A stretch of DNA of 32,000 bases from Erysipelotrichaceae bacterium. GTDB taxonomy: Bacteria; Bacillota_I; Bacilli_A; Erysipelotrichales; Erysipelotrichaceae. Shown here piece by piece: positions 22,742-29,475 of the stretch. The notes beneath the pieces were generated by a model, which saw only the letters and a program-made list of their open reading frames with translations, was not told the DNA's origin and did no database searches. The position numbers and the translations under genes were made by a program. Numbering within the stretch: the stretch's first letter is position 1; each line of letters begins with the position of its first letter. The stretch covers positions 630,001-662,000 of the forward strand of contig OY760660.1 of NCBI GenBank assembly GCA_963663995.1, read 5' to 3'.

Positions 22742-23536
22742 TTATTCGAGCTTTTCACCACAATAAGGACAATATTTTTTTTGTTTATTTTCAATATCAT
22801 GAACTTTTATTGATTCAACAAACCCTGCAGAAATTATACCAGTTGGAACAGCTACTAATCCAATTCCTAATATAGAAATTATTCCTGCCATAAATTTGCC
22901 ACCAATTGTAATAGGATATATATCTCCATATCCAACAGTGGTAAAAGTCGCGACGGCCCACCATAATCCCGATAATGCGTTATTGAAACTTTCAGGTTGC
23001 GATGAATTTTCAAGATTATACATTATTACAGATGAGATTATCATAAGTAACATAACAACAAAAAATGATGATAATAATTCAAATTTTTTCTTTTTAAAAA
23101 CATCAATAATATTCATCATTGAATCTGAATATCTATTAAATTTTAATATCCTTAATAGTCGTACTAATCTTAAAGTTCTTAATGCTCTTAAGTCTATTGT
23201 AATTATTAAAGGTATGTAGAAAGGTAATATAGCTAATAAATCTACAATTGCCATAAAACTAAAAATGTATTTTAATCTTGCCTTTATTGGTGTTAATTGG
23301 TTGAATTGAAACGTTGAAGTCCAAACTCTCAACAAGTATTCTATTGTAAAAACTACAATCGAAAAAAACTCGATTTTGCTTGATATTATTTCATAAAAAC
23401 TAGATAAATTAAATGTATCTAATATGACTAAACAAATATTTATTATTATTAAACCAATTATTGTCCAATCAAATAAATTGCTATAAACACCATTTTCGTC
23501 ATCTTCTCGAATTAAATTGTAAATTTTTTCTTTCAT
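22742..23536 (-). CDS. Voltage-sensor-containing 6-TM potassium channel (Kv/KvAP-like)
   Basis: 264 aa. The S4 is RALRTLRLVRLLRILK (basic residue every third position) and the selectivity filter is TTVGYGD. It has a short C-terminal tail ending in CPYCGEKLE. Confidence 0.88.
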   Translation of the reverse strand: MKEKIYNLIREDDENGVYSNLFDWTIIGLIIINICLVILDTFNLSSFYEIISSKIEFFSIVVFTIEYLLRVWTSTFQFNQLTPIKARLKYIFSFMAIVDLLAILPFYIPLIITIDLRALRTLRLVRLLRILKFNRYSDSMMNIIDVFKKKKFELLSSFFVVMLLMIISSVIMYNLENSSQPESFNNALSGLWWAVATFTTVGYGDIYPITIGGKFMAGIISILGIGLVAVPTGIISAGFVESIKVHDIENKQKKYCPYCGEKLE

Positions 23537-23545
23537 CGGTCCCTA

Positions 23546-25420
23546 TTATCCAATTTTCTCCATTCTTTGTAATCTTAAGAATTTTGAAATATCTTTATCA
23601 ACACAATATACAAAACAGCCTTTCATTCCTCGTGTCATTAATGTTCTATATGTGTTCTTTATAATCTCATCAGCTATTTTGTATGCTTCATCGGGATTGT
23701 TTTTTGCTAAACCTTTAATTCCAAATAACGATTTATCAGTAGATGCTCTTTTTTCAAAATTAGTAACAATCTTTCCGTCTCGATAAACCATATCTTCACC
23801 AATAATTACACCAACATATTCAAACTCCAAACCTTGAGTTGTATGTATACAACCAATTTCTGAAACTGAAGAATCAGAAATAGCATATATTTCGCTGTTA
23901 AGATTCCATTTCATTTTGAAATTATCTTTCTCTATCTTAATATCAAAATCATTAGGATTTTTTCTTGATATCCAATCCCAACAGTATCCTGCAACCATAC
24001 GGGATTTATTATTTGTATTTAGTTTCTCAATTTCTTCTCTCATTTTTGAAACATCATCAAATATTCTAAAATCATAATCAAAATCAAAGTTATAGTTTGC
24101 TGTTTCTCTAATTTGAAGAACATTATCTATCCAATTAAGATAACCATCTGAACCATTACATCTGAATTGTGAGGCCAATTCATTTTCAAAGACTTCTGCA
24201 TTGAGATATTTTGACCATTTTTTAATTTCTTCTGAACTACCAATATCACTTATATGTATTTTTTGTTGGTGATCTATAAAGAAAATCGAAAACAAACTTG
24301 CATTGATGATTTCTTTAATTTGGTTCTCCCCTAAATTTGCAAATAAACCAGATTTTTCGTTTAAACGATGTGCTTCATCTACTATTAAAGCATTATAAAA
24401 GTTTGTAGAACTTTCAGTAAAACTACCTGAACCTGTGAAAAGATAACTAATGTCTTTAGACTTTCTACCATGTTTTTTTAAATAGTATTGATAAACCTGT
24501 CTTGGTGCTGAATTTTTTGTTACATAGCGTGTATGAAGTTCATCTTTGATAGTTAAGTTAGCTAGTAAATTAATAGCTACAACAGACTTTCCAGTTCCAG
24601 GACCACCTTCTACTATCATGACTCTTTTTTTATGATCTTTGTTACATTTTCGAGCTAAAGCTAAAGCTTGTTCATAAACAACTTTCTGTTCATCGACCAT
24701 AATAAATTCTTCATTACCATCAATCATGGATGCTAGTGAATCTTGAAGAGATTTTGATGGTTTTATCTTACCTGTTTCTATTAATTTTATTGTTTCATGA
24801 TTATCAGGAGATTTAATGATTGAATCTATATAGTGGCTTAATCTAAGGACATCACGTTTAGTAAATATGGGTGCCTTTTTTATATAGTCATCATAAACTG
24901 GATGAAATACTCCATCGTTATCAACTTTTTCATAATTGTGCATAAATACGCATGAACTTAAATCAATAGGAATTTGATAAATGTTCTCATTAAAATCAGT
25001 TAATAAACTTTGATAAGTCCATGATTGATAAGAAGGATGAGTTACGATTCTATCATTTCCACCAACAAACGTTTTCACTAGTCCATCTGAAGAAGGTAAT
25101 GCTTGTACATTAGACCATTGTTTAAGTTCAATAATGATGGCTTTGTTTTCATTATTTTCACCAAAACCACTAATTATAAAATCAATTCTTTTAGAAGTAT
25201 TTGGTATTGTATATTCAATAGATATTGATGTGTTATCATCCAATTTTGTTTCTGATAACATCATACGCATAAAAGCAAAAGAGTTTTGAAATGCACTCTT
25301 TTGCGATTGGTTTACACCAGATCTTAATTTTTCTACTAGCAGTTTTTCGACGATATCTGCTATCTCACCACCCAATACAGAATCCATAAAGTTAGATTTT
25401 GTATCTGTATATATAATCAT
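23546..25420 (-). CDS. DUF2075-family protein (Nhi-like): N-terminal PD-(D/E)xK-type nuclease motif plus SF1-like P-loop ATPase
   Basis: 624 aa with RIDFIISG...AIIIELKQW (D...E-x-K), Walker A GGPGTGKS and Walker B IVDEAH. The C-terminal block is IHTTQGLEFEYVGVIIG. Confidence 0.75.
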   Translation of the reverse strand: MIIYTDTKSNFMDSVLGGEIADIVEKLLVEKLRSGVNQSQKSAFQNSFAFMRMMLSETKLDDNTSISIEYTIPNTSKRIDFIISGFGENNENKAIIIELKQWSNVQALPSSDGLVKTFVGGNDRIVTHPSYQSWTYQSLLTDFNENIYQIPIDLSSCVFMHNYEKVDNDGVFHPVYDDYIKKAPIFTKRDVLRLSHYIDSIIKSPDNHETIKLIETGKIKPSKSLQDSLASMIDGNEEFIMVDEQKVVYEQALALARKCNKDHKKRVMIVEGGPGTGKSVVAINLLANLTIKDELHTRYVTKNSAPRQVYQYYLKKHGRKSKDISYLFTGSGSFTESSTNFYNALIVDEAHRLNEKSGLFANLGENQIKEIINASLFSIFFIDHQQKIHISDIGSSEEIKKWSKYLNAEVFENELASQFRCNGSDGYLNWIDNVLQIRETANYNFDFDYDFRIFDDVSKMREEIEKLNTNNKSRMVAGYCWDWISRKNPNDFDIKIEKDNFKMKWNLNSEIYAISDSSVSEIGCIHTTQGLEFEYVGVIIGEDMVYRDGKIVTNFEKRASTDKSLFGIKGLAKNNPDEAYKIADEIIKNTYRTLMTRGMKGCFVYCVDKDISKFLRLQRMEKIG

Positions 25421-25429
25421 AGTACCCCC

Positions 25430-25744
25430 CTACAATTTATTATATTTTTTACTACTTCCCTTAGATTTATCGATTGGATATTTAATATTATTTTTTTCCA
25501 ATTTATTTAAAACTATTGCTTCTAAATCAACATTAAGTTTATCTGATAACAAAATACAATAATTGACAATATCTGCAAGTTCATCAATAACTTCATCTTT
25601 ATTAAAATCAGAGCCCCATTGAAAACACTCCAATAATTCTGCTGATTCAATCGAAATAGATTTAGCTAAATTTTCTGGAGTGTGAAATTGATCCCAATCT
25701 CTATCTTTTGTAAATTGTACAATTTTATCTTTTGCTAATTTCAT
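25430..25744 (-). CDS. MazG-like nucleotide pyrophosphohydrolase (DCTPP1-like all-alpha NTP-PPase)
   Basis: 104 aa with RDWDQFHTPENLAKSISIESAELLECFQW (E-x-x-E-x-x-E), DELADIVNY (E-x-x-D) and ..NNIKYP. Confidence 0.8.
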   Translation of the reverse strand: MKLAKDKIVQFTKDRDWDQFHTPENLAKSISIESAELLECFQWGSDFNKDEVIDELADIVNYCILLSDKLNVDLEAIVLNKLEKNNIKYPIDKSKGSSKKYNKL

Positions 25745-25750
25745 ATAAAA

Positions 25751-25759
25751 ATTATAGCA
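25751..25759 (-). promoter_or_regulatory. Extended -10 element (TGcTATAAT) only 6 nt upstream of the MazG-like ATG; candidate leaderless promoter
   Basis: The minus strand reads TGCTATAAT-TTTTAT-ATG. There is no SD between the hexamer and the start codon. Confidence 0.45.
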
Positions 25760-25858
25760 TTTTGTATTAGTAATCTTATATTACATGTCATTTATAGGAT
25801 TATTTAACAAATAATATTTACTAATTTAATTTAATTTAGCTATTAAGATTATCTAAAA

Positions 25859-25887
25859 GTGACAAAATTCTAGTTTAATACTATGAT
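25859..25887 (+). promoter_or_regulatory. Sigma-A-type promoter of the 1015-aa helicase gene
   Basis: GTGACA (25859-25864), a 17-nt spacer, then TATGAT (25882-25887). SD GGGGG lies 4 nt before ATG 25923. Confidence 0.5.
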
Positions 25888-25922
25888 GAAATAGTCAAAA
25901 CATCAGTGTTCATGGGGGTTAT

Positions 25923-28900
25923 ATGTACATCTGGTCTATAGAAGTATCTCGTTCAATACATGAGGGGAAATGGATTGCGATAAAATACAAAAATGAAAAT
26001 CAAGAGGAAACAAGTTTTTGGTGTGTAATAAAAGACATAAACCCAAAGAAAAAACTTCTGACTGTTGATGTATATAATTCTTCCAAGACTCCAAATTTTA
26101 ACAGAGATTTCCATATCTATTTTGATCGAATTACTCAAGCGAATGTCATCGAAGGATCTTTCAGTAAAATTCAATCAAAATTAATTGATAAAATAAATAG
26201 TAATATTGAAGATTATCTATTTTTAGAATATGCTCGATTTGAAGATAAACTACTTAATTACTATAACGAGTGTTACCTTCAAGACAACGATCCTAGTCAA
26301 ACCCAATATACTGTTGTTGAAGGTATAGATATTGAGAATTTTGATAATACTAATCAATTACAATTGACAGATGAACAATTCGAAGACTTTATAAAAACAT
26401 TAAATAATCAACTAAATATAAAACGAAAAAATAATTCTATATATGAAAAAGTCATTTTTAATTATTTATCTGTTTTTAATAAAACCAAAGGAATAATACC
26501 AATTTGTTATTACGATATATTAATAGATATCGAGCATAAAAGAATGGTTAAATCAGATACTTTGGAATTTAGTCCCAAAACAATTGTTTTTGGCAAAACA
26601 AACACCGTTTATTTGAATAACTACATGGAAGTTGATTATGATTTTTTCAAAGAAAATTTTTTGAATTACGAAACTGAATTTACTAATGCAATACAGGAAA
26701 ATCTATCATATAGTGAAAGACTTGACCAACGTCCATATTTCATGAAAATGGTATTGCGCTATAACATTTCTGTTAAAGCTGAAATTGATTATATTGCGCA
26801 TAATTTGGAATCTAATGATTTATCATTATCACTACAATCATTGTTTGGTAAAAAAATAGAAACCAAAAAAGGTCAAAAAAGATCTATTTTGGTGGATAGC
26901 AAACATATTAATGCAAATCAATTAAGAGCTGTATATAATGCAATTAATGAAAACTTATTATATGTTCAAGGACCGCCAGGAACTGGTAAAACTGTGTCTA
27001 TTACTAACATGGTGCATTCTAGTTTTTATAATGGAAATTCAACTTTAATCGCATCAAACAATAATGAAGCTATCGATAACATTTTTAAACGTATAGATAA
27101 ACTAAAAGTTGATGGTGTTCAAATACCTTATCCTTATTTAAGGTTAGGTAATGATCATTATCTTATTGAAGCAATTGCGAAAATCGAAAGAAGATATCAA
27201 TATTTCAAAGAAAGACCAACATCAGTTGTTGATAAGAATGAATTGTATACGCTACGTTTAAAAATCAAAGAAAATTTAGGAAATGTCAGCAAAATATTAA
27301 GTGAATATGAAGAGAAACTGGAATTAGAGGAAAATTTAAATACTCTATTAGAATTAAAGAAGCTTATCGACAAAGACGATCAAATTGATTTAGCTACTAA
27401 AATGGCAAACATCATTGATATTGATGCACAAATTCAAGATTATTCCCAAAAAATTAAGATAAAAAATGTAGATGAAAGTAGTATATCTAATTTTGTTTTT
27501 GATGAAGATGTTAATAAAAAATTTATTCAACTATTGTCGTTAACATATGGAGAAAGATTATTGTTAAGTAAAAATCGAACGCTAATAGATATCTTTAAAA
27601 TTGAATCTCAAAAAGAGAGATTAAAGGAATTTAAAAATTTCATCAAAACTGAAGATGGTTTTAGAATATTAATTGATTGTTTTCCAATAATTGGTTCTTC
27701 AAATATATCTACATTAAAAATCGGTACTGAAAATAGTCGTTTTGACTTATTAATAATGGAAGAAGCTTCTCAATGTAGTATTGTGCCATCTTTGATTCCA
27801 ATGAATCGTTCAAAAAGAGCCTGCTTTGTCGGTGATCCACAACAATTACAGCCTGTTGTGACAATATCTGAAGAAAAAAATAAACTATTAATGAAACTCT
27901 ACAACATCATGGATGTATATAGTTATAAAAATAATTCAATTATGAATGTTCTCTTAAGTGTTGATTCAAAATCTAAATTTATTTTTTTAAAAAAACACTA
28001 TCGATGTGCCAAAAAAATTATTGATTTTTCAAATAAAAAATATTATTCCAACCAACTTGAAATTGAAACTCAAGAAAAAGAATTAGAACCACTGAAATTA
28101 ATTAATATCCAAAATTCACATTCAGCTCTCAGAAACACTTCAATATCAGAAGCTAATGAAATTATTAATGAAATTAGAAGAACTCCTAAGGACATGCAAG
28201 TTGCAATCATTACGCCTTTTAAGAATCAACAACAATTGATACAACAAGTTTTAGATACCGAAAAAATCGAAAATATAAAAGTTAGTACAATACATGGTTT
28301 TCAAGGTCAAGAAAGTGACAAGATTATCTTTAGTCCTGCTATCACCTCTAATACAACTCAAGGCGCATTTGATTGGGCAAAAAATAATAAAGAATTAATA
28401 AATGTTACTTCAACGCGTCCAAGAGATCATATTTTAGTAATTGCTGATGTTGCAGAAGTTATGCGTTTATCAAATAGCGAAATGAATGATTTACAAGAAT
28501 TTTTACATTATATAAACAACAATGGTGATTATGATATTATTTCTGAAGACTATATTGGAAATGAAACTAAAGTAATAGGCTACAAAACATTCAATACTGA
28601 GTCTGAATCAGAGTTTATTAGAACGATCGCTCAACTAAAATCTACAAACCAAAAGTTCAAATATATTCCTAAAACTCGTATAGGAGATATCTTAGAATTA
28701 ATGAATCTTAAAAATGAGGATTATGATTTATTCAAATATGCTATAAAATCACATTTTGATTTTGTCCTACTTGATTCTTATGGTAGACCCATGTTGGTTG
28801 TAGAAATTTGTGGTTATGAACATCTTACTGATGAAATTACTATGGCAAACGACTTAAAGAAAGTAAAAATTTGTGTTCAACACAATTTGAAAATATTACC

Positions 28901-28970
28901 GATATTTAATCAAGATGTTAGAAGATATAACGAAATTAAAAGAGCGTTATTGTCTACTTTAAGTGCCTAA
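25923..28970 (+). CDS. SF1 (Upf1/DNA2-like, AAA_11/AAA_12-type) helicase with an uncharacterised N-terminal region (WYL-like start) and a C-terminal DUF2726/Vsr-like endonuclease-fold domain
   Basis: 1015 aa. Motifs are I VQGPPGTGKT, II LLIMEEASQ, III VGDPQQLQPV, IV HYRC, V TIHGFQGQESD and VI VTSTRPRD. A coiled-coil-like insert lies between motifs I and II. The C-terminus is HFDFVLLDSYGRPMLVVEICGYEH. Confidence 0.8.
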   Translation: MYIWSIEVSRSIHEGKWIAIKYKNENQEETSFWCVIKDINPKKKLLTVDVYNSSKTPNFNRDFHIYFDRITQANVIEGSFSKIQSKLIDKINSNIEDYLFLEYARFEDKLLNYYNECYLQDNDPSQTQYTVVEGIDIENFDNTNQLQLTDEQFEDFIKTLNNQLNIKRKNNSIYEKVIFNYLSVFNKTKGIIPICYYDILIDIEHKRMVKSDTLEFSPKTIVFGKTNTVYLNNYMEVDYDFFKENFLNYETEFTNAIQENLSYSERLDQRPYFMKMVLRYNISVKAEIDYIAHNLESNDLSLSLQSLFGKKIETKKGQKRSILVDSKHINANQLRAVYNAINENLLYVQGPPGTGKTVSITNMVHSSFYNGNSTLIASNNNEAIDNIFKRIDKLKVDGVQIPYPYLRLGNDHYLIEAIAKIERRYQYFKERPTSVVDKNELYTLRLKIKENLGNVSKILSEYEEKLELEENLNTLLELKKLIDKDDQIDLATKMANIIDIDAQIQDYSQKIKIKNVDESSISNFVFDEDVNKKFIQLLSLTYGERLLLSKNRTLIDIFKIESQKERLKEFKNFIKTEDGFRILIDCFPIIGSSNISTLKIGTENSRFDLLIMEEASQCSIVPSLIPMNRSKRACFVGDPQQLQPVVTISEEKNKLLMKLYNIMDVYSYKNNSIMNVLLSVDSKSKFIFLKKHYRCAKKIIDFSNKKYYSNQLEIETQEKELEPLKLINIQNSHSALRNTSISEANEIINEIRRTPKDMQVAIITPFKNQQQLIQQVLDTEKIENIKVSTIHGFQGQESDKIIFSPAITSNTTQGAFDWAKNNKELINVTSTRPRDHILVIADVAEVMRLSNSEMNDLQEFLHYINNNGDYDIISEDYIGNETKVIGYKTFNTESESEFIRTIAQLKSTNQKFKYIPKTRIGDILELMNLKNEDYDLFKYAIKSHFDFVLLDSYGRPMLVVEICGYEHLTDEITMANDLKKVKICVQHNLKILPIFNQDVRRYNEIKRALLSTLSA

Positions 28971-29475
28971 TATATTCTTGAATTTCAAACTCTTCAAATT
29001 CAGCATTACTTTTCACATACAAAGGATGATGAGGATGTCCGTATTTAGTTAACATTCCTCTTTTTACCCATGTACAATTTTTTAATTCAGGTAAATTAAC
29101 AATTTGAATTAATAATTCTTTTAGATATCGACGTTTTTCTATTAAAGTTCCCCAGGCACACCAAATTGTTAAATGTTTAAAATTAATGAATTCTGAAATT
29201 GTTTTTATATTTGTTTCTATTAAATCCTTTTTTGCATGTTTATGTAATAATCTTGGATCAGTAGATCTTTGAGGATAAAGATTCAACATCACATACCCAT
29301 CAAAATTATTAATCATTGAAACAAACATCAAAGTTGCCATTGTTTGGTCATATTCATCTGATGTTGCAGTACTTGGATTTATACCAATGCATATTAATGG
29401 ATTATTACCATTATCACCTAAAATAAAACGTGCTCTATTATTTTCACTTGTCTTGTATACGTTTTTAGTTTTCAT
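28954..29475 (-). CDS. DUF1643-family protein
   Basis: 173 aa with blocks ICIGINPSTA, DQT, MLNLYPQRSTDPRLL, CAWG and YGHPHHPLY, which match my recollection of DUF1643. It overlaps the helicase 3' end by 17 nt in convergent orientation. Confidence 0.75.
   Translation of the reverse strand: MKTKNVYKTSENNRARFILGDNGNNPLICIGINPSTATSDEYDQTMATLMFVSMINNFDGYVMLNLYPQRSTDPRLLHKHAKKDLIETNIKTISEFINFKHLTIWCAWGTLIEKRRYLKELLIQIVNLPELKNCTWVKRGMLTKYGHPHHPLYVKSNAEFEEFEIQEYIRHLK

What the first reader, a model, noticed from the sequence alone, without database searches (positions are those of the whole stretch)
22742..25744. Translationally coupled MazG-like pyrophosphohydrolase / DUF2075 (Nhi-like) nuclease-ATPase / voltage-sensor K+ channel operon: candidate multi-gene anti-phage module
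Seen in the sequence:
- Three minus-strand genes are separated by only 9 nt each (25421-25429 and 23537-23545).
- At both junctions the upstream stop is followed directly by a Shine-Dalgarno (TAG-GGGGGG-TACT-ATG and TAA-TAGGGACCG-ATG), which suggests obligate co-expression.
- Gene 1 (104 aa) carries the all-alpha MazG metal motifs E-x-x-E-x-x-E (IESAELLE) and E-x-x-D (DELAD).
- Gene 2 (624 aa) carries an N-terminal D...E-x-K signature (RIDFIISG...IIIELKQW), Walker A GGPGTGKS, Walker B IVDEAH and the DUF2075-typical HTTQGLEFEYVGVIIG block.
- Gene 3 (264 aa) is a 6-TM channel with an Arg/Lys-every-third S4 and a TTVGYGD filter.

Established knowledge: DUF2075-type nuclease-helicases include, as I recall, the staphylococcal anti-phage enzyme Nhi. 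Nucleotide-pool depletion is a known defence strategy. DCTPP1-like MazG enzymes hydrolyse canonical and modified dNTPs.

Inference: to my knowledge, a unit combining a dNTP pyrophosphohydrolase, a nuclease-ATPase and an ion channel has not been described. The MazG-like enzyme might starve or sanitise phage (modified) nucleotide pools, and the channel might act as an abortive-infection effector. The channel could equally be an unrelated passenger.
Basis: partly seen in the sequence, partly recalled or inferred. Interest (0 to 1): 0.8.

Follow-up and report, generated by a model that had tools for sequence, protein, structure and literature searches.

The report
MazG–DUF2075 defence-candidate pair, plus unrelated channel
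Two of the three genes (a small dNTP-cleaving enzyme and a nuclease-helicase) form a widespread mobile pair that is a plausible but still unproven anti-phage system, while the potassium-channel gene is a separately acquired passenger.

Summary
All three ORFs, their 9-nt junctions and their motifs are real. Only the first two genes form a unit. The MazG-like (DCTPP1-type) pyrophosphohydrolase sits on the same strand near homologues of the 624-aa DUF2075 protein in 47 of 65 informative genome loci from many bacterial and archaeal phyla. The reciprocal count is 40 of 58 MazG-centred metagenome loci. Gene order varies, start/stop overlaps are frequent, and flanks are rich in restriction and abortive-infection genes. 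The channel occurs in none of 160 such loci. It is also missing from the syntenic locus of the nearest relatives, which have PTS–DUF1643–MazG–DUF2075–addB. Its family is often prophage cargo.

The pair is not unreported. Millman et al. 2022 (Table S2) list it as candidate "Pyrophosphatase": SG192, no defence observed; SG193, cloning failed. The window's proteins are 45% and 50% identical to SG192.

New here:
- 16 of 80 homologues carry a C-terminal LexA-like S24 self-cleaving domain.
- Some cassettes hold a variable third gene (3-TM protein, HEPN_AbiU2, GIY-YIG) between the two.

Verdict: a real, conserved two-gene candidate defence cassette in an insertion hotspot. The three-gene system is not supported.

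The parts
25430..25744 (-). MazG-like all-alpha NTP pyrophosphohydrolase (104 aa), DCTPP1/RS21-C6 type; first gene of the cassette
   Evidence: Pfam PF12643 E=4e-19. PDB DCTPP1/RS21-C6 E=3e-16 and 4qgp pyrophosphatase E=6e-16. Metal-binding E33, E36, E39, E55, D58 and the K88-Y-P motif are kept in >=93% of 56 cassette partners. 45% identical to the Millman SG192 pyrophosphatase.
25751..25759 (-). TGcTATAAT extended -10-like element, 6 nt upstream of the MazG ATG; possible promoter giving a leaderless or near-leaderless mRNA (inferred)
   Evidence: Read directly. The same sequence is kept in the sister contig L081, where homology to the window starts only 24 nt upstream of the ATG. Not tested further.
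25421..25429 (-). 9-nt MazG/DUF2075 junction with a G-rich Shine-Dalgarno-like run (GGGGGTACT)
   Evidence: In relatives the two genes are separated by 8-28 nt or overlap by 4 nt (ATGA) in 11 of 80 loci.
23546..25420 (-). 624-aa nuclease-like + SF1 helicase protein (DUF2075 / SLFN-g3 helicase); second gene of the cassette
   Evidence: PF09848 E=7e-102. Only weak, partial PADLOC hits: PDC-S41 2e-17 and Nhi 1e-11. More than 8000 homologues of about 620 aa. AF2 model pLDDT 79.8; best Foldseek matches are SLFN11, RecD2, Upf1 and Dda. 50% identical to Millman SG192 DUF2075 over the 399 aa available.
24716..25420 (-). N-terminal domain (residues 1-235) with E69...D80...E98-x-K100, a putative PD-(D/E)xK nuclease
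   Evidence: These residues are invariant in 22 homologues. The AF2 domain model (pLDDT 86.5) has alpha-beta-beta-beta-alpha-beta order around the motif. Sub-threshold Pfam hits go to REase-type families MTES_1575, NERD, DUF2726 and DUF7149, E 0.04-0.1. hhalign to the N-terminus of the validated Nhi-like protein gives E=0.0075 with the motifs in register. Foldseek against PDB is not significant.
23597..24628 (-). Helicase/ATPase core (residues 265-608): Walker A GGPGTGKS (24584-24607) and Walker B/DEAH (24368-24385)
23537..23545 (-). 9-nt DUF2075/channel junction (TAGGGACCG)
   Evidence: In sister contigs, homology to the window is lost about 50 nt before the DUF2075 stop and resumes at the addB start.
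22742..23536 (-). 6-TM Kv-like K+ channel (264 aa). Not part of the conserved cassette; a strain-specific insertion between DUF2075 and addB
   Evidence: PF00520 1e-33 and PF07885 1e-15. Absent from L081-L086 at the same locus and from all 160 cassette loci. Homologues lie in prophage lysogeny modules and in unrelated chromosomal contexts.
25923..28970 (+). Neighbouring 1015-aa SF1 helicase with a C-terminal DUF2726 nuclease-like domain (Mokosh-like). A separate, second insertion in the same hotspot
   Evidence: AAA_11 4e-27, AAA_12 1e-20, DUF2726 6e-7. PADLOC MkoC 3e-48 and MkoA 2.5e-39, both partial. In sister contigs 158 nt replace window 25769-28971.

Best explanation
The locus is an insertion hotspot between addB and a PTS/DUF1643 block. 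It holds three independently acquired accessory units.

The core of the finding is a mobile two-gene cassette:
- a DCTPP1-like dNTP pyrophosphohydrolase (MazG-like);
- a translationally coupled nuclease-helicase with a putative PD-(D/E)xK domain and a Schlafen-type SF1 helicase.

Shown:
- The two genes are linked across bacterial and archaeal phyla and are co-inherited.
- Both keep their catalytic residues.
- They sit among restriction, Abi and other defence genes.

Inferred:
- The cassette is an anti-phage or anti-MGE system of the Nhi type. The helicase-nuclease engages and degrades invading or replicating foreign DNA.
- The pyrophosphohydrolase acts on the nucleotide pool. It may remove (modified) dNTPs needed by the invader. 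Alternatively it may keep non-canonical nucleotides out of host DNA so that the nuclease spares self.
- In about one fifth of homologues a C-terminal LexA-like S24 domain suggests activation by RecA-ssDNA filaments.
- In the window's short form the trigger is unknown.

The K+ channel is a separately acquired cargo gene of a family often carried by prophages. The Mokosh-like helicase is another separate insert.
For: Linkage of the two genes:
- MazG-like lies on the same strand in 55/80 genome loci. That is 47/65 loci with both flanks available, 35 upstream and 13 downstream, with 11 ATGA overlaps.
- Reciprocally, 40/58 informative MazG-centred metagenome loci carry a DUF2075 gene.
- Pairwise identities of the two proteins correlate: r=0.50, Mantel 0/2000.
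- Catalytic residues are conserved in both proteins.

Mobility:
- The cassette is 92.6% identical in DNA to sister contigs, whereas flanking core genes are 65-82% identical.
- Homologues of about 50% identity occur in Firmicutes, Proteobacteria, Bacteroidota, Verrucomicrobia, Saccharibacteria and methanogens.
- The pair is also present in a record deposited as Microcystis phage Mwe-JY31.

Defence context:
- Close homologues sit next to GmrSD, NERD-HRDC, Macro, AbiH and AAA_15/OLD-like genes.
- Across 134 flanking proteins the commonest families are DUF3427 type IV REase, ResIII, HNH, PLD, AbiE, Fic and methylases.
- Millman et al. independently shortlisted the pair as a defence candidate.
- DefensePredictor lists MazG as a predicted but unvalidated defence domain.

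Architecture matches Nhi and Nhi-like. S24 fusions carry an AAG site, a GxSM motif and GK.

Channel is independent:
- It is absent from L081-L086 at the same locus and from 160 cassette loci.
- Homologues lie beside prophage integrases.
- 245 IMG/VR contigs encode a relative, and none of the 80 fetched carries MazG or DUF2075.
Against: - The only experimental test on record was negative: SG192 from Bacillus firmus LK28 in the Millman screen, 'observed defense: x'. SG193 could not be cloned.
- About a quarter of DUF2075 homologues have no MazG within 6 kb. About a third of this MazG clade has no DUF2075 nearby. The partnership is therefore frequent but not obligate.
- PADLOC models match only weakly and partially.
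- The nuclease fold was not confirmed by Foldseek.
- Defence-island enrichment was judged from family lists without a background control.
- The role assigned to MazG is inference only.
Confidence: 0.6

Rival explanations
1. One reading: a three-gene defence operon in which the Kv-like channel is the abortive-infection effector of the MazG/DUF2075 pair.
For: - A 9-nt junction with a weak SD, and no terminator between the genes.
- Related cassettes do recruit extra genes. Unrelated third genes sit between MazG and DUF2075: a 3-TM protein family in L096-098, L100 and L120; a 2-TM protein in L129; HEPN_AbiU2 in L080 and L119; GIY-YIG in L138.
- The channel family is itself mobile.
Against: - No channel is found in 160 cassette loci or in 4 contexts of the closest homologues.
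- The nearest relatives have the identical locus without it.
- The channel is equally tightly packed against addB, at 23 nt.
- No MazG or DUF2075 lies beside 80 viral-contig channel homologues or in 5 other channel contexts.
- Only 1 of 28 tightly linked neighbours of the cassette is a multi-TM protein.
Confidence: 0.07
2. The cassette is not immunity. It is an accessory DNA-damage or replication-stress module: nucleotide-pool sanitation by MazG plus processing of damaged or stalled DNA by the helicase-nuclease, under SOS-like control.
For: - LexA/UmuD-type S24 domains are fused to 16/80 homologues.
- MutT-like NUDIX genes lie within 3.2 kb in 7/80 loci.
- A Y-family polymerase lies about 1.6 kb upstream of MazG in L104.
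- The eukaryotic relative SLFN11 responds to replication stress (stated in PMC6765204).
- The phage-defence test of SG192 was negative.
Against: - Distribution is patchy and horizontally transferred.
- Immediate neighbours are mostly restriction, Abi or TA genes, not repair genes.
- HEPN_AbiU2 and membrane-protein inserts are typical of conflict systems.
Confidence: 0.2
3. A toxin-antitoxin-like addiction pair: the nuclease-helicase is toxic and MazG counteracts it, which stabilises the island. Any phage effect would be secondary.
For: - Tight coupling with variable gene order.
- One homologous construct could not be cloned (SG193).
- A toxic Nhi homologue is reported in 10.1101/776245.
Against: - 17/65 DUF2075 genes stand alone without MazG.
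- MazG keeps a full catalytic site rather than looking like a binding-only antitoxin.
- No toxicity data exist for this family.
Confidence: 0.08

Closest known systems
Millman et al. 2022 candidate system 'Pyrophosphatase' (constructs SG192, Bacillus firmus LK28; SG193, B. thuringiensis Lr3/2), Table S2 of bioRxiv 10.1101/2022.05.11.491447
   Same: The same two genes in the same order. The window's MazG is 45% identical to the SG192 pyrophosphatase (E=1e-27). The window's DUF2075 protein is 50% identical over the 399 residues printed (E=1e-142). SG193 is a distant version at 24% identity.
   Different: The window has an extra channel gene downstream and a different host lineage. SG192 showed no defence in that screen and SG193 was not cloned, so function is unproven. 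The system is not named or discussed in that paper's main text.
Nhi (S. epidermidis SERP2475; Bari et al., bioRxiv 10.1101/776245) and 'Nhi-like' (SG141, B. cereus FSL H8-0482; Millman et al. 2022)
   Same: N-terminal E..D..ExK nuclease-type domain followed by a DUF2075 SF1 helicase of about 610-625 aa. hhalign puts the N-terminal motifs in register with Nhi-like, E=0.0075.
   Different: No full-length sequence homology. The PADLOC Nhi model covers only the helicase part (E=1e-11, 42 bits). BLASTP against Nhi-like matches only the P-loop (E=0.012). Nhi and Nhi-like act as single genes, whereas this family usually has a dedicated MazG partner.
DCTPP1 / RS21-C6 (all-alpha dCTP pyrophosphatase 1; PDB 2a3q, 6sqw, 7mu5, 2oie)
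   Same: Same fold family (PF12643), with the ExxExxE and ExxD metal sites and the C-terminal KYP motif.
   Different: A bacterial, 104-aa minimal form encoded with a helicase-nuclease. Its substrate preference is unknown.
Schlafen group III helicase domain (human SLFN11 and SLFN14; PDB 7zel, 9nyy)
   Same: Pfam family PF09848. The best Foldseek match of the full model is SLFN11, E=2e-10.
   Different: No Schlafen RNase N-domain; a PD-(D/E)xK-like N-domain takes its place. TM-scores are low (0.34) and there is no PDB hit by sequence.
Prokaryotic 6-TM voltage-gated-type K+ channels (Ion_trans PF00520; NCBIfam K_channel_Meth, MVP-like)
   Same: S1-S6 topology, S4 Arg/Lys ladder and TTVGYGD filter.
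   Different: Below the NCBIfam cutoff (46 vs 300 bits). It has a conserved C-terminal (Y/F)CPYCG tail, and the family is frequently prophage-borne.

Membership tests
MazG-like all-alpha NTP pyrophosphohydrolase (PF12643; DCTPP1 type) | Profile match above the curated cutoff | tested here: met
   69 bits against a cutoff of 27, E=4e-19. PDB DCTPP1 E=3e-16.
MazG-like all-alpha NTP pyrophosphohydrolase (PF12643; DCTPP1 type) | Metal-binding ExxE(xxE) and ExxD acidic residues | tested here: met
   E33, E36, E39, E55 and D58 are present and conserved in >=93% of 56 partners.
MazG-like all-alpha NTP pyrophosphohydrolase (PF12643; DCTPP1 type) | dNTP pyrophosphohydrolase activity and substrate preference | not testable with these tools
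   Needs enzyme assays.
DUF2075 / SLFN-g3 helicase (PF09848) | Full-length profile match with intact Walker A and Walker B | tested here: met
   342 bits covering 1-354/354 of the profile. GGPGTGKS and DEAH are invariant. SF1 helicase fold matches.
Nhi (Bari et al.) | Sequence homology over the whole protein to SERP2475-type Nhi | tested here: not met
   The PADLOC Nhi model scores 42 bits and covers only residues 237-566, profile positions 179-441 of 470.
Nhi (Bari et al.) | N-terminal PD-(D/E)xK nuclease domain | tested here: inconclusive
   Invariant E69/D80/E98xK100 and matching topology. Pfam hits are weak and Foldseek is not significant.
Nhi (Bari et al.) | Single-gene anti-phage activity | not testable with these tools
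   Needs an experiment. The one related construct tested (SG192, two genes) showed none.
Millman 'Nhi-like' (SG141) | Sequence homology to the validated B. cereus protein | tested here: not met
   BLASTP matches the P-loop only, E=0.012. The N-terminal hhalign gives E=0.0075 at probability 5%.
Millman candidate 'Pyrophosphatase' (SG192/SG193) | Adjacent same-strand pyrophosphatase and DUF2075 genes, both homologous to the SG192 proteins | tested here: met
   45% and 50% identity, E=1e-27 and 1e-142. Same gene order.
   0/80 genome loci and 0/80 metagenome loci. Absent from the syntenic sister locus. 0/80 viral channel loci carry MazG or DUF2075.
Voltage-gated-type K+ channel (PF00520 + PF07885) | Six TM segments, a positively charged S4 and a TVGYG filter | tested here: met
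Mokosh type II (MkoC), for the neighbouring gene 25923-28970 | Helicase plus C-terminal PLD nuclease, with a full-length MkoC profile match | tested here: not met
   The MkoC match covers only the helicase part (436-862 against 495-964 of 1136). The C-terminus is DUF2726, not PLD.

The most novel reading that the evidence does not exclude
The MazG/DUF2075 pair is a modular immune platform. A Schlafen-type helicase-nuclease and a dNTP pyrophosphohydrolase would sense foreign or damaged DNA; S24-fused forms would be released by RecA filaments. They would control exchangeable third-position effectors: 3-TM proteins, HEPN_AbiU2, GIY-YIG and, in this strain, a Kv-like K+ channel acting as a membrane-depolarising abortive-infection effector. 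A weaker version is that this prophage-borne Kv channel family is by itself a phage-exclusion gene.
Probability: 0.1. Interest if true: 0.8.

Novelty: new variant of a known kind. Interest (0 to 1): 0.42.

Why it matters
If the cassette is a working immune system, it would be the first case in which a house-cleaning-type dNTP pyrophosphohydrolase is a dedicated partner of a nuclease-helicase. That would link nucleotide-pool editing to DNA targeting. It would also give a bacterial model for Schlafen-type helicases. As of the 2026 DefensePredictor paper, MazG domains in defence remain unvalidated.

The family is very large, with more than 8000 homologues, and crosses the bacteria/archaea boundary. 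A function would therefore annotate many genomes.

Three results give concrete experimental handles that the single negative test in the literature did not explore:
- the S24 fusions;
- the optional third genes;
- the exact sister locus that lacks the channel.

For the scan itself, the useful result is the correction: the eye-catching three-gene operon is a two-gene cassette plus a passenger.

Tried and rejected
- Literature search for DUF2075+MazG and Nhi-like+MazG found nothing in main texts. The link was found only in a supplementary table.
- A PDB sequence search with the DUF2075 profile gave no hit.
- Foldseek of the isolated N-terminal domain gave no significant match. PD-(D/E)xK enzymes (EcoO109I, Cap4, EndoMS, MspJI) appear only at E 0.2-1.8.
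- The search for MazG-DUF2075 fusion proteins among 1.84 billion representatives found none in the best 150. One MazG+SNF2 fragment (P0296) may be a gene-calling artefact.
- NUDIX as a replacement for MazG was rejected. NUDIX neighbours mostly co-occur with MazG.
- The divergent C-terminal tail of the window's DUF2075 is not evidence of recombination with a DUF2075-channel donor, because the tail is hypervariable across the family.
- Source-organism lookup returned no names.
- The middle genes have no significant PADLOC matches; only weak hits for L138 and L118.
- Multi-TM proteins are not enriched among tightly linked neighbours of the cassette in the genome set, at 1/28.


Full report
**Observation**

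The three minus-strand ORFs are exactly where stated: 25430-25744 (104 aa), 23546-25420 (624 aa) and 22742-23536 (264 aa). Both junctions are 9 nt. The first is TAG-GGGGGTACT-ATG and the second is TAA-TAGGGACCG-ATG.

- Pfam assigns PF12643 MazG-like (E=4e-19), PF09848 SLFN-g3_helicase/DUF2075 (E=7e-102) and PF00520/PF07885 ion channel (E=1e-33 and 1e-15).
- Tight packing is not special to the trio. The channel stop is 23 nt from the addB start.
- No minus-strand terminator-like site lies between MazG and addA.
- G+C falls to 0.25-0.30 across about 22.5-29.5 kb, against 0.31-0.40 outside.

**The two-gene cassette**

The 624-aa protein belongs to a very large family of about 620-aa proteins. They remain more than 50% identical across Firmicutes, and about 45-50% identical in Proteobacteria, Bacteroidota, Verrucomicrobia, Saccharibacteria and methanogenic archaea.

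In 80 species-representative genome loci:
- A MazG-like gene lies on the same strand in 55 loci.
- Among the 65 loci with at least 450 bp on both sides, 48 have one and 47 of these are within 600 nt.
- A family HMM found no further MazG genes in the rest.
- The MazG gene is upstream in 35 loci and downstream in 13. Gene order does not track DUF2075 similarity.
- The two genes overlap by 4 nt in 11 loci.

The reciprocal test used 80 metagenome loci chosen by similarity to the window's MazG. A same-strand DUF2075 gene was present in 40 of 58 informative loci. Pairwise identities of the two proteins correlate (r=0.50; Mantel 0/2000). Shared host phylogeny could contribute to that correlation.

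The partner keeps the DCTPP1-type catalytic residues in at least 93% of 56 sequences. Its closest solved relatives are DCTPP1/RS21-C6.

**What the 624-aa protein looks like**

- The AF2 model (pLDDT 79.8) matches SF1 helicases best: SLFN11, RecD2, Upf1 and Dda.
- No PDB sequence relative exists.
- The N-terminal 235 residues carry invariant E69, D80 and E98-x-K100 on consecutive predicted strands.
- They give only sub-threshold Pfam hits, all to restriction-endonuclease-type families.
- They align in register with the N-terminus of the validated Nhi-like protein, at E=0.0075 and low probability.
- Foldseek of the isolated domain was not significant.

The nuclease assignment is therefore likely but not proven. 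PADLOC's Nhi and PDC-S41 models match only part of the protein.

**Prior knowledge**

No paper in the library mentions DUF2075 together with MazG in its text. Table S2 of Millman et al. 2022 (bioRxiv 10.1101/2022.05.11.491447) does list a candidate system called "Pyrophosphatase".

- SG192 (Bacillus firmus LK28) has a 98-aa pyrophosphatase and a 643-aa DUF2075 protein. The "observed defense" column reads "x".
- SG193 (B. thuringiensis) is marked "cloning failed".
- The window's proteins are 45% and 50% identical to the SG192 pair and 24% identical to SG193.
- The window's protein is not a sequence relative of that paper's validated single-gene "Nhi-like" protein.
- The 2026 DefensePredictor paper still describes MazG as a predicted defence domain that has not been validated.

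**The channel**

Contigs encoding a 95%-identical DUF2075 protein (P0001) come from a sister lineage and share the locus: PTS EIIBC, EIIA, DUF1643, MazG, DUF2075, addB.

- DNA identity is 92.6% across the cassette but 65-82% in the flanking genes.
- The alignment drops out between window positions 23595 and 22720, which is the channel. There the sister contigs have about 150 nt.
- It drops out again between 25768 and 28972, which is the Mokosh-like helicase. There the sister contigs have 158 nt.
- Other close homologues (65-69% identical) also have the 104-aa MazG and an 8-9-nt junction. They are followed by GmrSD, NERD-HRDC and Macro genes, by AbiH genes, or by an AAA_15/OLD-like gene. None is followed by a channel.
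- No channel occurs in any of the 160 cassette loci.

The channel belongs to a large, well-conserved family of small Kv-like channels of gut Firmicutes. Members are about 60-65% identical and share a conserved C-terminal (Y/F)CPYCG tail.

- Its members sit in unrelated places.
- In three different prophages the gene lies between the repressor/ImmA module and the integrase. In another case it lies at a prophage end.
- In other contigs it is chromosomal, next to an Endonuclease_NS_2 surface protein or next to MsrAB.
- 245 IMG/VR contigs encode a relative. A tyrosine integrase lies within 5 kb in 25 of the 80 fetched, and none carries MazG or DUF2075.

The channel is best read as independent mobile cargo that landed in the same hotspot.

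**New features of the cassette family**

- Sixteen of 80 homologues, mostly Gram-negative, are about 800 aa long. They end in a Peptidase_S24 domain (E 1e-7 to 6e-11) with a conserved AA-G site, a GxSM serine motif and GK. These are the LexA/UmuD self-cleavage elements, which points to RecA-filament-dependent control.
- In 11 of 40 metagenome cassettes and about 4 genome cassettes, an extra gene sits between MazG and DUF2075. It comes from unrelated families:
  - a 3-TM protein family of 259-279 aa, seen in three lineages of 36-64% identity;
  - a 2-TM protein;
  - HEPN_AbiU2;
  - GIY-YIG;
  - small zinc-ribbon proteins.
- None of these extra genes has a significant PADLOC match.
- This modularity is typical of conflict systems. 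It keeps a small probability alive that the window's channel is a strain-specific add-on. Against that, it sits in a different position and is a singleton.

**Mechanism**

Shown:
- The two genes are linked and co-inherited.
- Both keep their catalytic residues.
- The cassette is mobile.
- Its neighbourhoods are rich in defence genes.

Inferred:
- The cassette is an Nhi-type DNA-targeting system.
- Its pyrophosphohydrolase edits the dNTP pool. It may starve an invader that uses modified nucleotides, or it may protect host DNA from the nuclease.
- Some variants are gated by RecA-dependent self-cleavage.

Rival readings are a replication-stress or pool-sanitation module, and a toxin-antitoxin-like addiction pair. 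They are not excluded, and the single negative experiment weighs against a simple defence role.

**Verdict**

- The two-gene cassette is a real but already shortlisted and unvalidated candidate.
- The three-gene system is not supported.

Noticed in passing
L007, L020, L023, L030, L032, L037, L043, L044, L045, L047, L050, L052, L056, L061, L062, L065 (C-terminal ~180 aa of the DUF2075 homologue, e.g. L023:7801-8391): 16 of 80 DUF2075 homologues carry a C-terminal LexA/UmuD-type Peptidase_S24 domain. It has a conserved AA-G putative cleavage site, a GxSM serine motif and GK. This suggests RecA-filament-triggered self-cleavage. Most still pair with MazG.
   Followed up: partly
L096:1995-2789, L097:4306-5100, L098:4306-5100, L100:4324-5163, L120:4306-5085, L129:330-986, L080:5394-5969, L119:4317-4898, L138:463-960, L011:4520-5017: Some cassettes have a third gene inserted between MazG and DUF2075, taken from unrelated families. 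These include a 3-TM protein family with a soluble C-terminal domain, a 2-TM protein, HEPN_AbiU2, GIY-YIG and unknowns. Only the GIY-YIG gene (L138) gives even a weak PADLOC hit.
   Followed up: partly
window 25923-28970 (+): A 1015-aa protein with an unassigned N-terminal 300 aa, an SF1 helicase (AAA_11/AAA_12) and a C-terminal DUF2726 nuclease-like domain. PADLOC MkoC and MkoA hits are partial, so it is a Mokosh-like helicase with a different nuclease. It is absent from the sister contigs, which makes it a second insertion in the hotspot. Its 3' end overlaps the convergent DUF1643 gene by 17 nt.
   Followed up: partly
L178-L180 (5001-5822), L093, L185-L264: Close homologues of the Kv-like channel are recurrent prophage cargo. 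In three prophage variants the gene lies between the repressor/ImmA module and the integrase. 245 IMG/VR contigs encode a relative, and 25 of the 80 fetched have an integrase within 5 kb. A role in lysogenic conversion or phage exclusion is possible but untested.
   Followed up: partly
window 22745-22780 (channel residues 253-264): The channel family ends in a conserved (Y/F)CPYCG motif: a single CxxC per subunit, which could form an inter-subunit metal site in a tetramer. This stretch is the only part of the channel that touches a PADLOC model (PDC-M14A, E=0.0075).
   Followed up: no
window 25751-25759 (-): TGcTATAAT extended -10-like element 6 nt upstream of the MazG ATG, with no Shine-Dalgarno. 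It is conserved in sister contig L081, where it marks the edge of homology. The MazG mRNA may be leaderless.
   Followed up: no
window 23595-25768 vs L081-L086: The cassette is 92.6% identical in DNA to the sister contigs, whereas the flanking addB, DUF1643 and PTS genes are 65-82% identical. This suggests recent exchange of the cassette between the two lineages at the same locus.
   Followed up: no
L006, L017, L022, L025, L034, L042, L051: A MutT-like NUDIX gene of about 130 aa lies within 3.2 kb of the DUF2075 gene in 7 of 80 loci, mostly together with MazG. It is a second nucleotide-pool enzyme in the neighbourhood.
   Followed up: partly
L094 (PP438423.1, Microcystis phage Mwe-JY31) 3657-5863: A 22-kb record deposited as a phage genome carries the MazG-like gene and a 49%-identical DUF2075 gene as an adjacent pair, both annotated as hypothetical.
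   Followed up: partly
L101, L103, L104, L106 (4326-4988): In some loci the same MazG clade is followed at 4 nt by a conserved protein of about 220 aa instead of DUF2075; that protein has no Pfam match in L104. In L104 an AraC regulator lies directly upstream and a Y-family polymerase gene about 1.6 kb upstream.
   Followed up: partly
P0296: A 489-aa predicted protein joins a truncated MazG-like domain to an SNF2/ResIII helicase fragment. It could be a real fusion or a frameshift or gene-calling artefact.
   Followed up: partly
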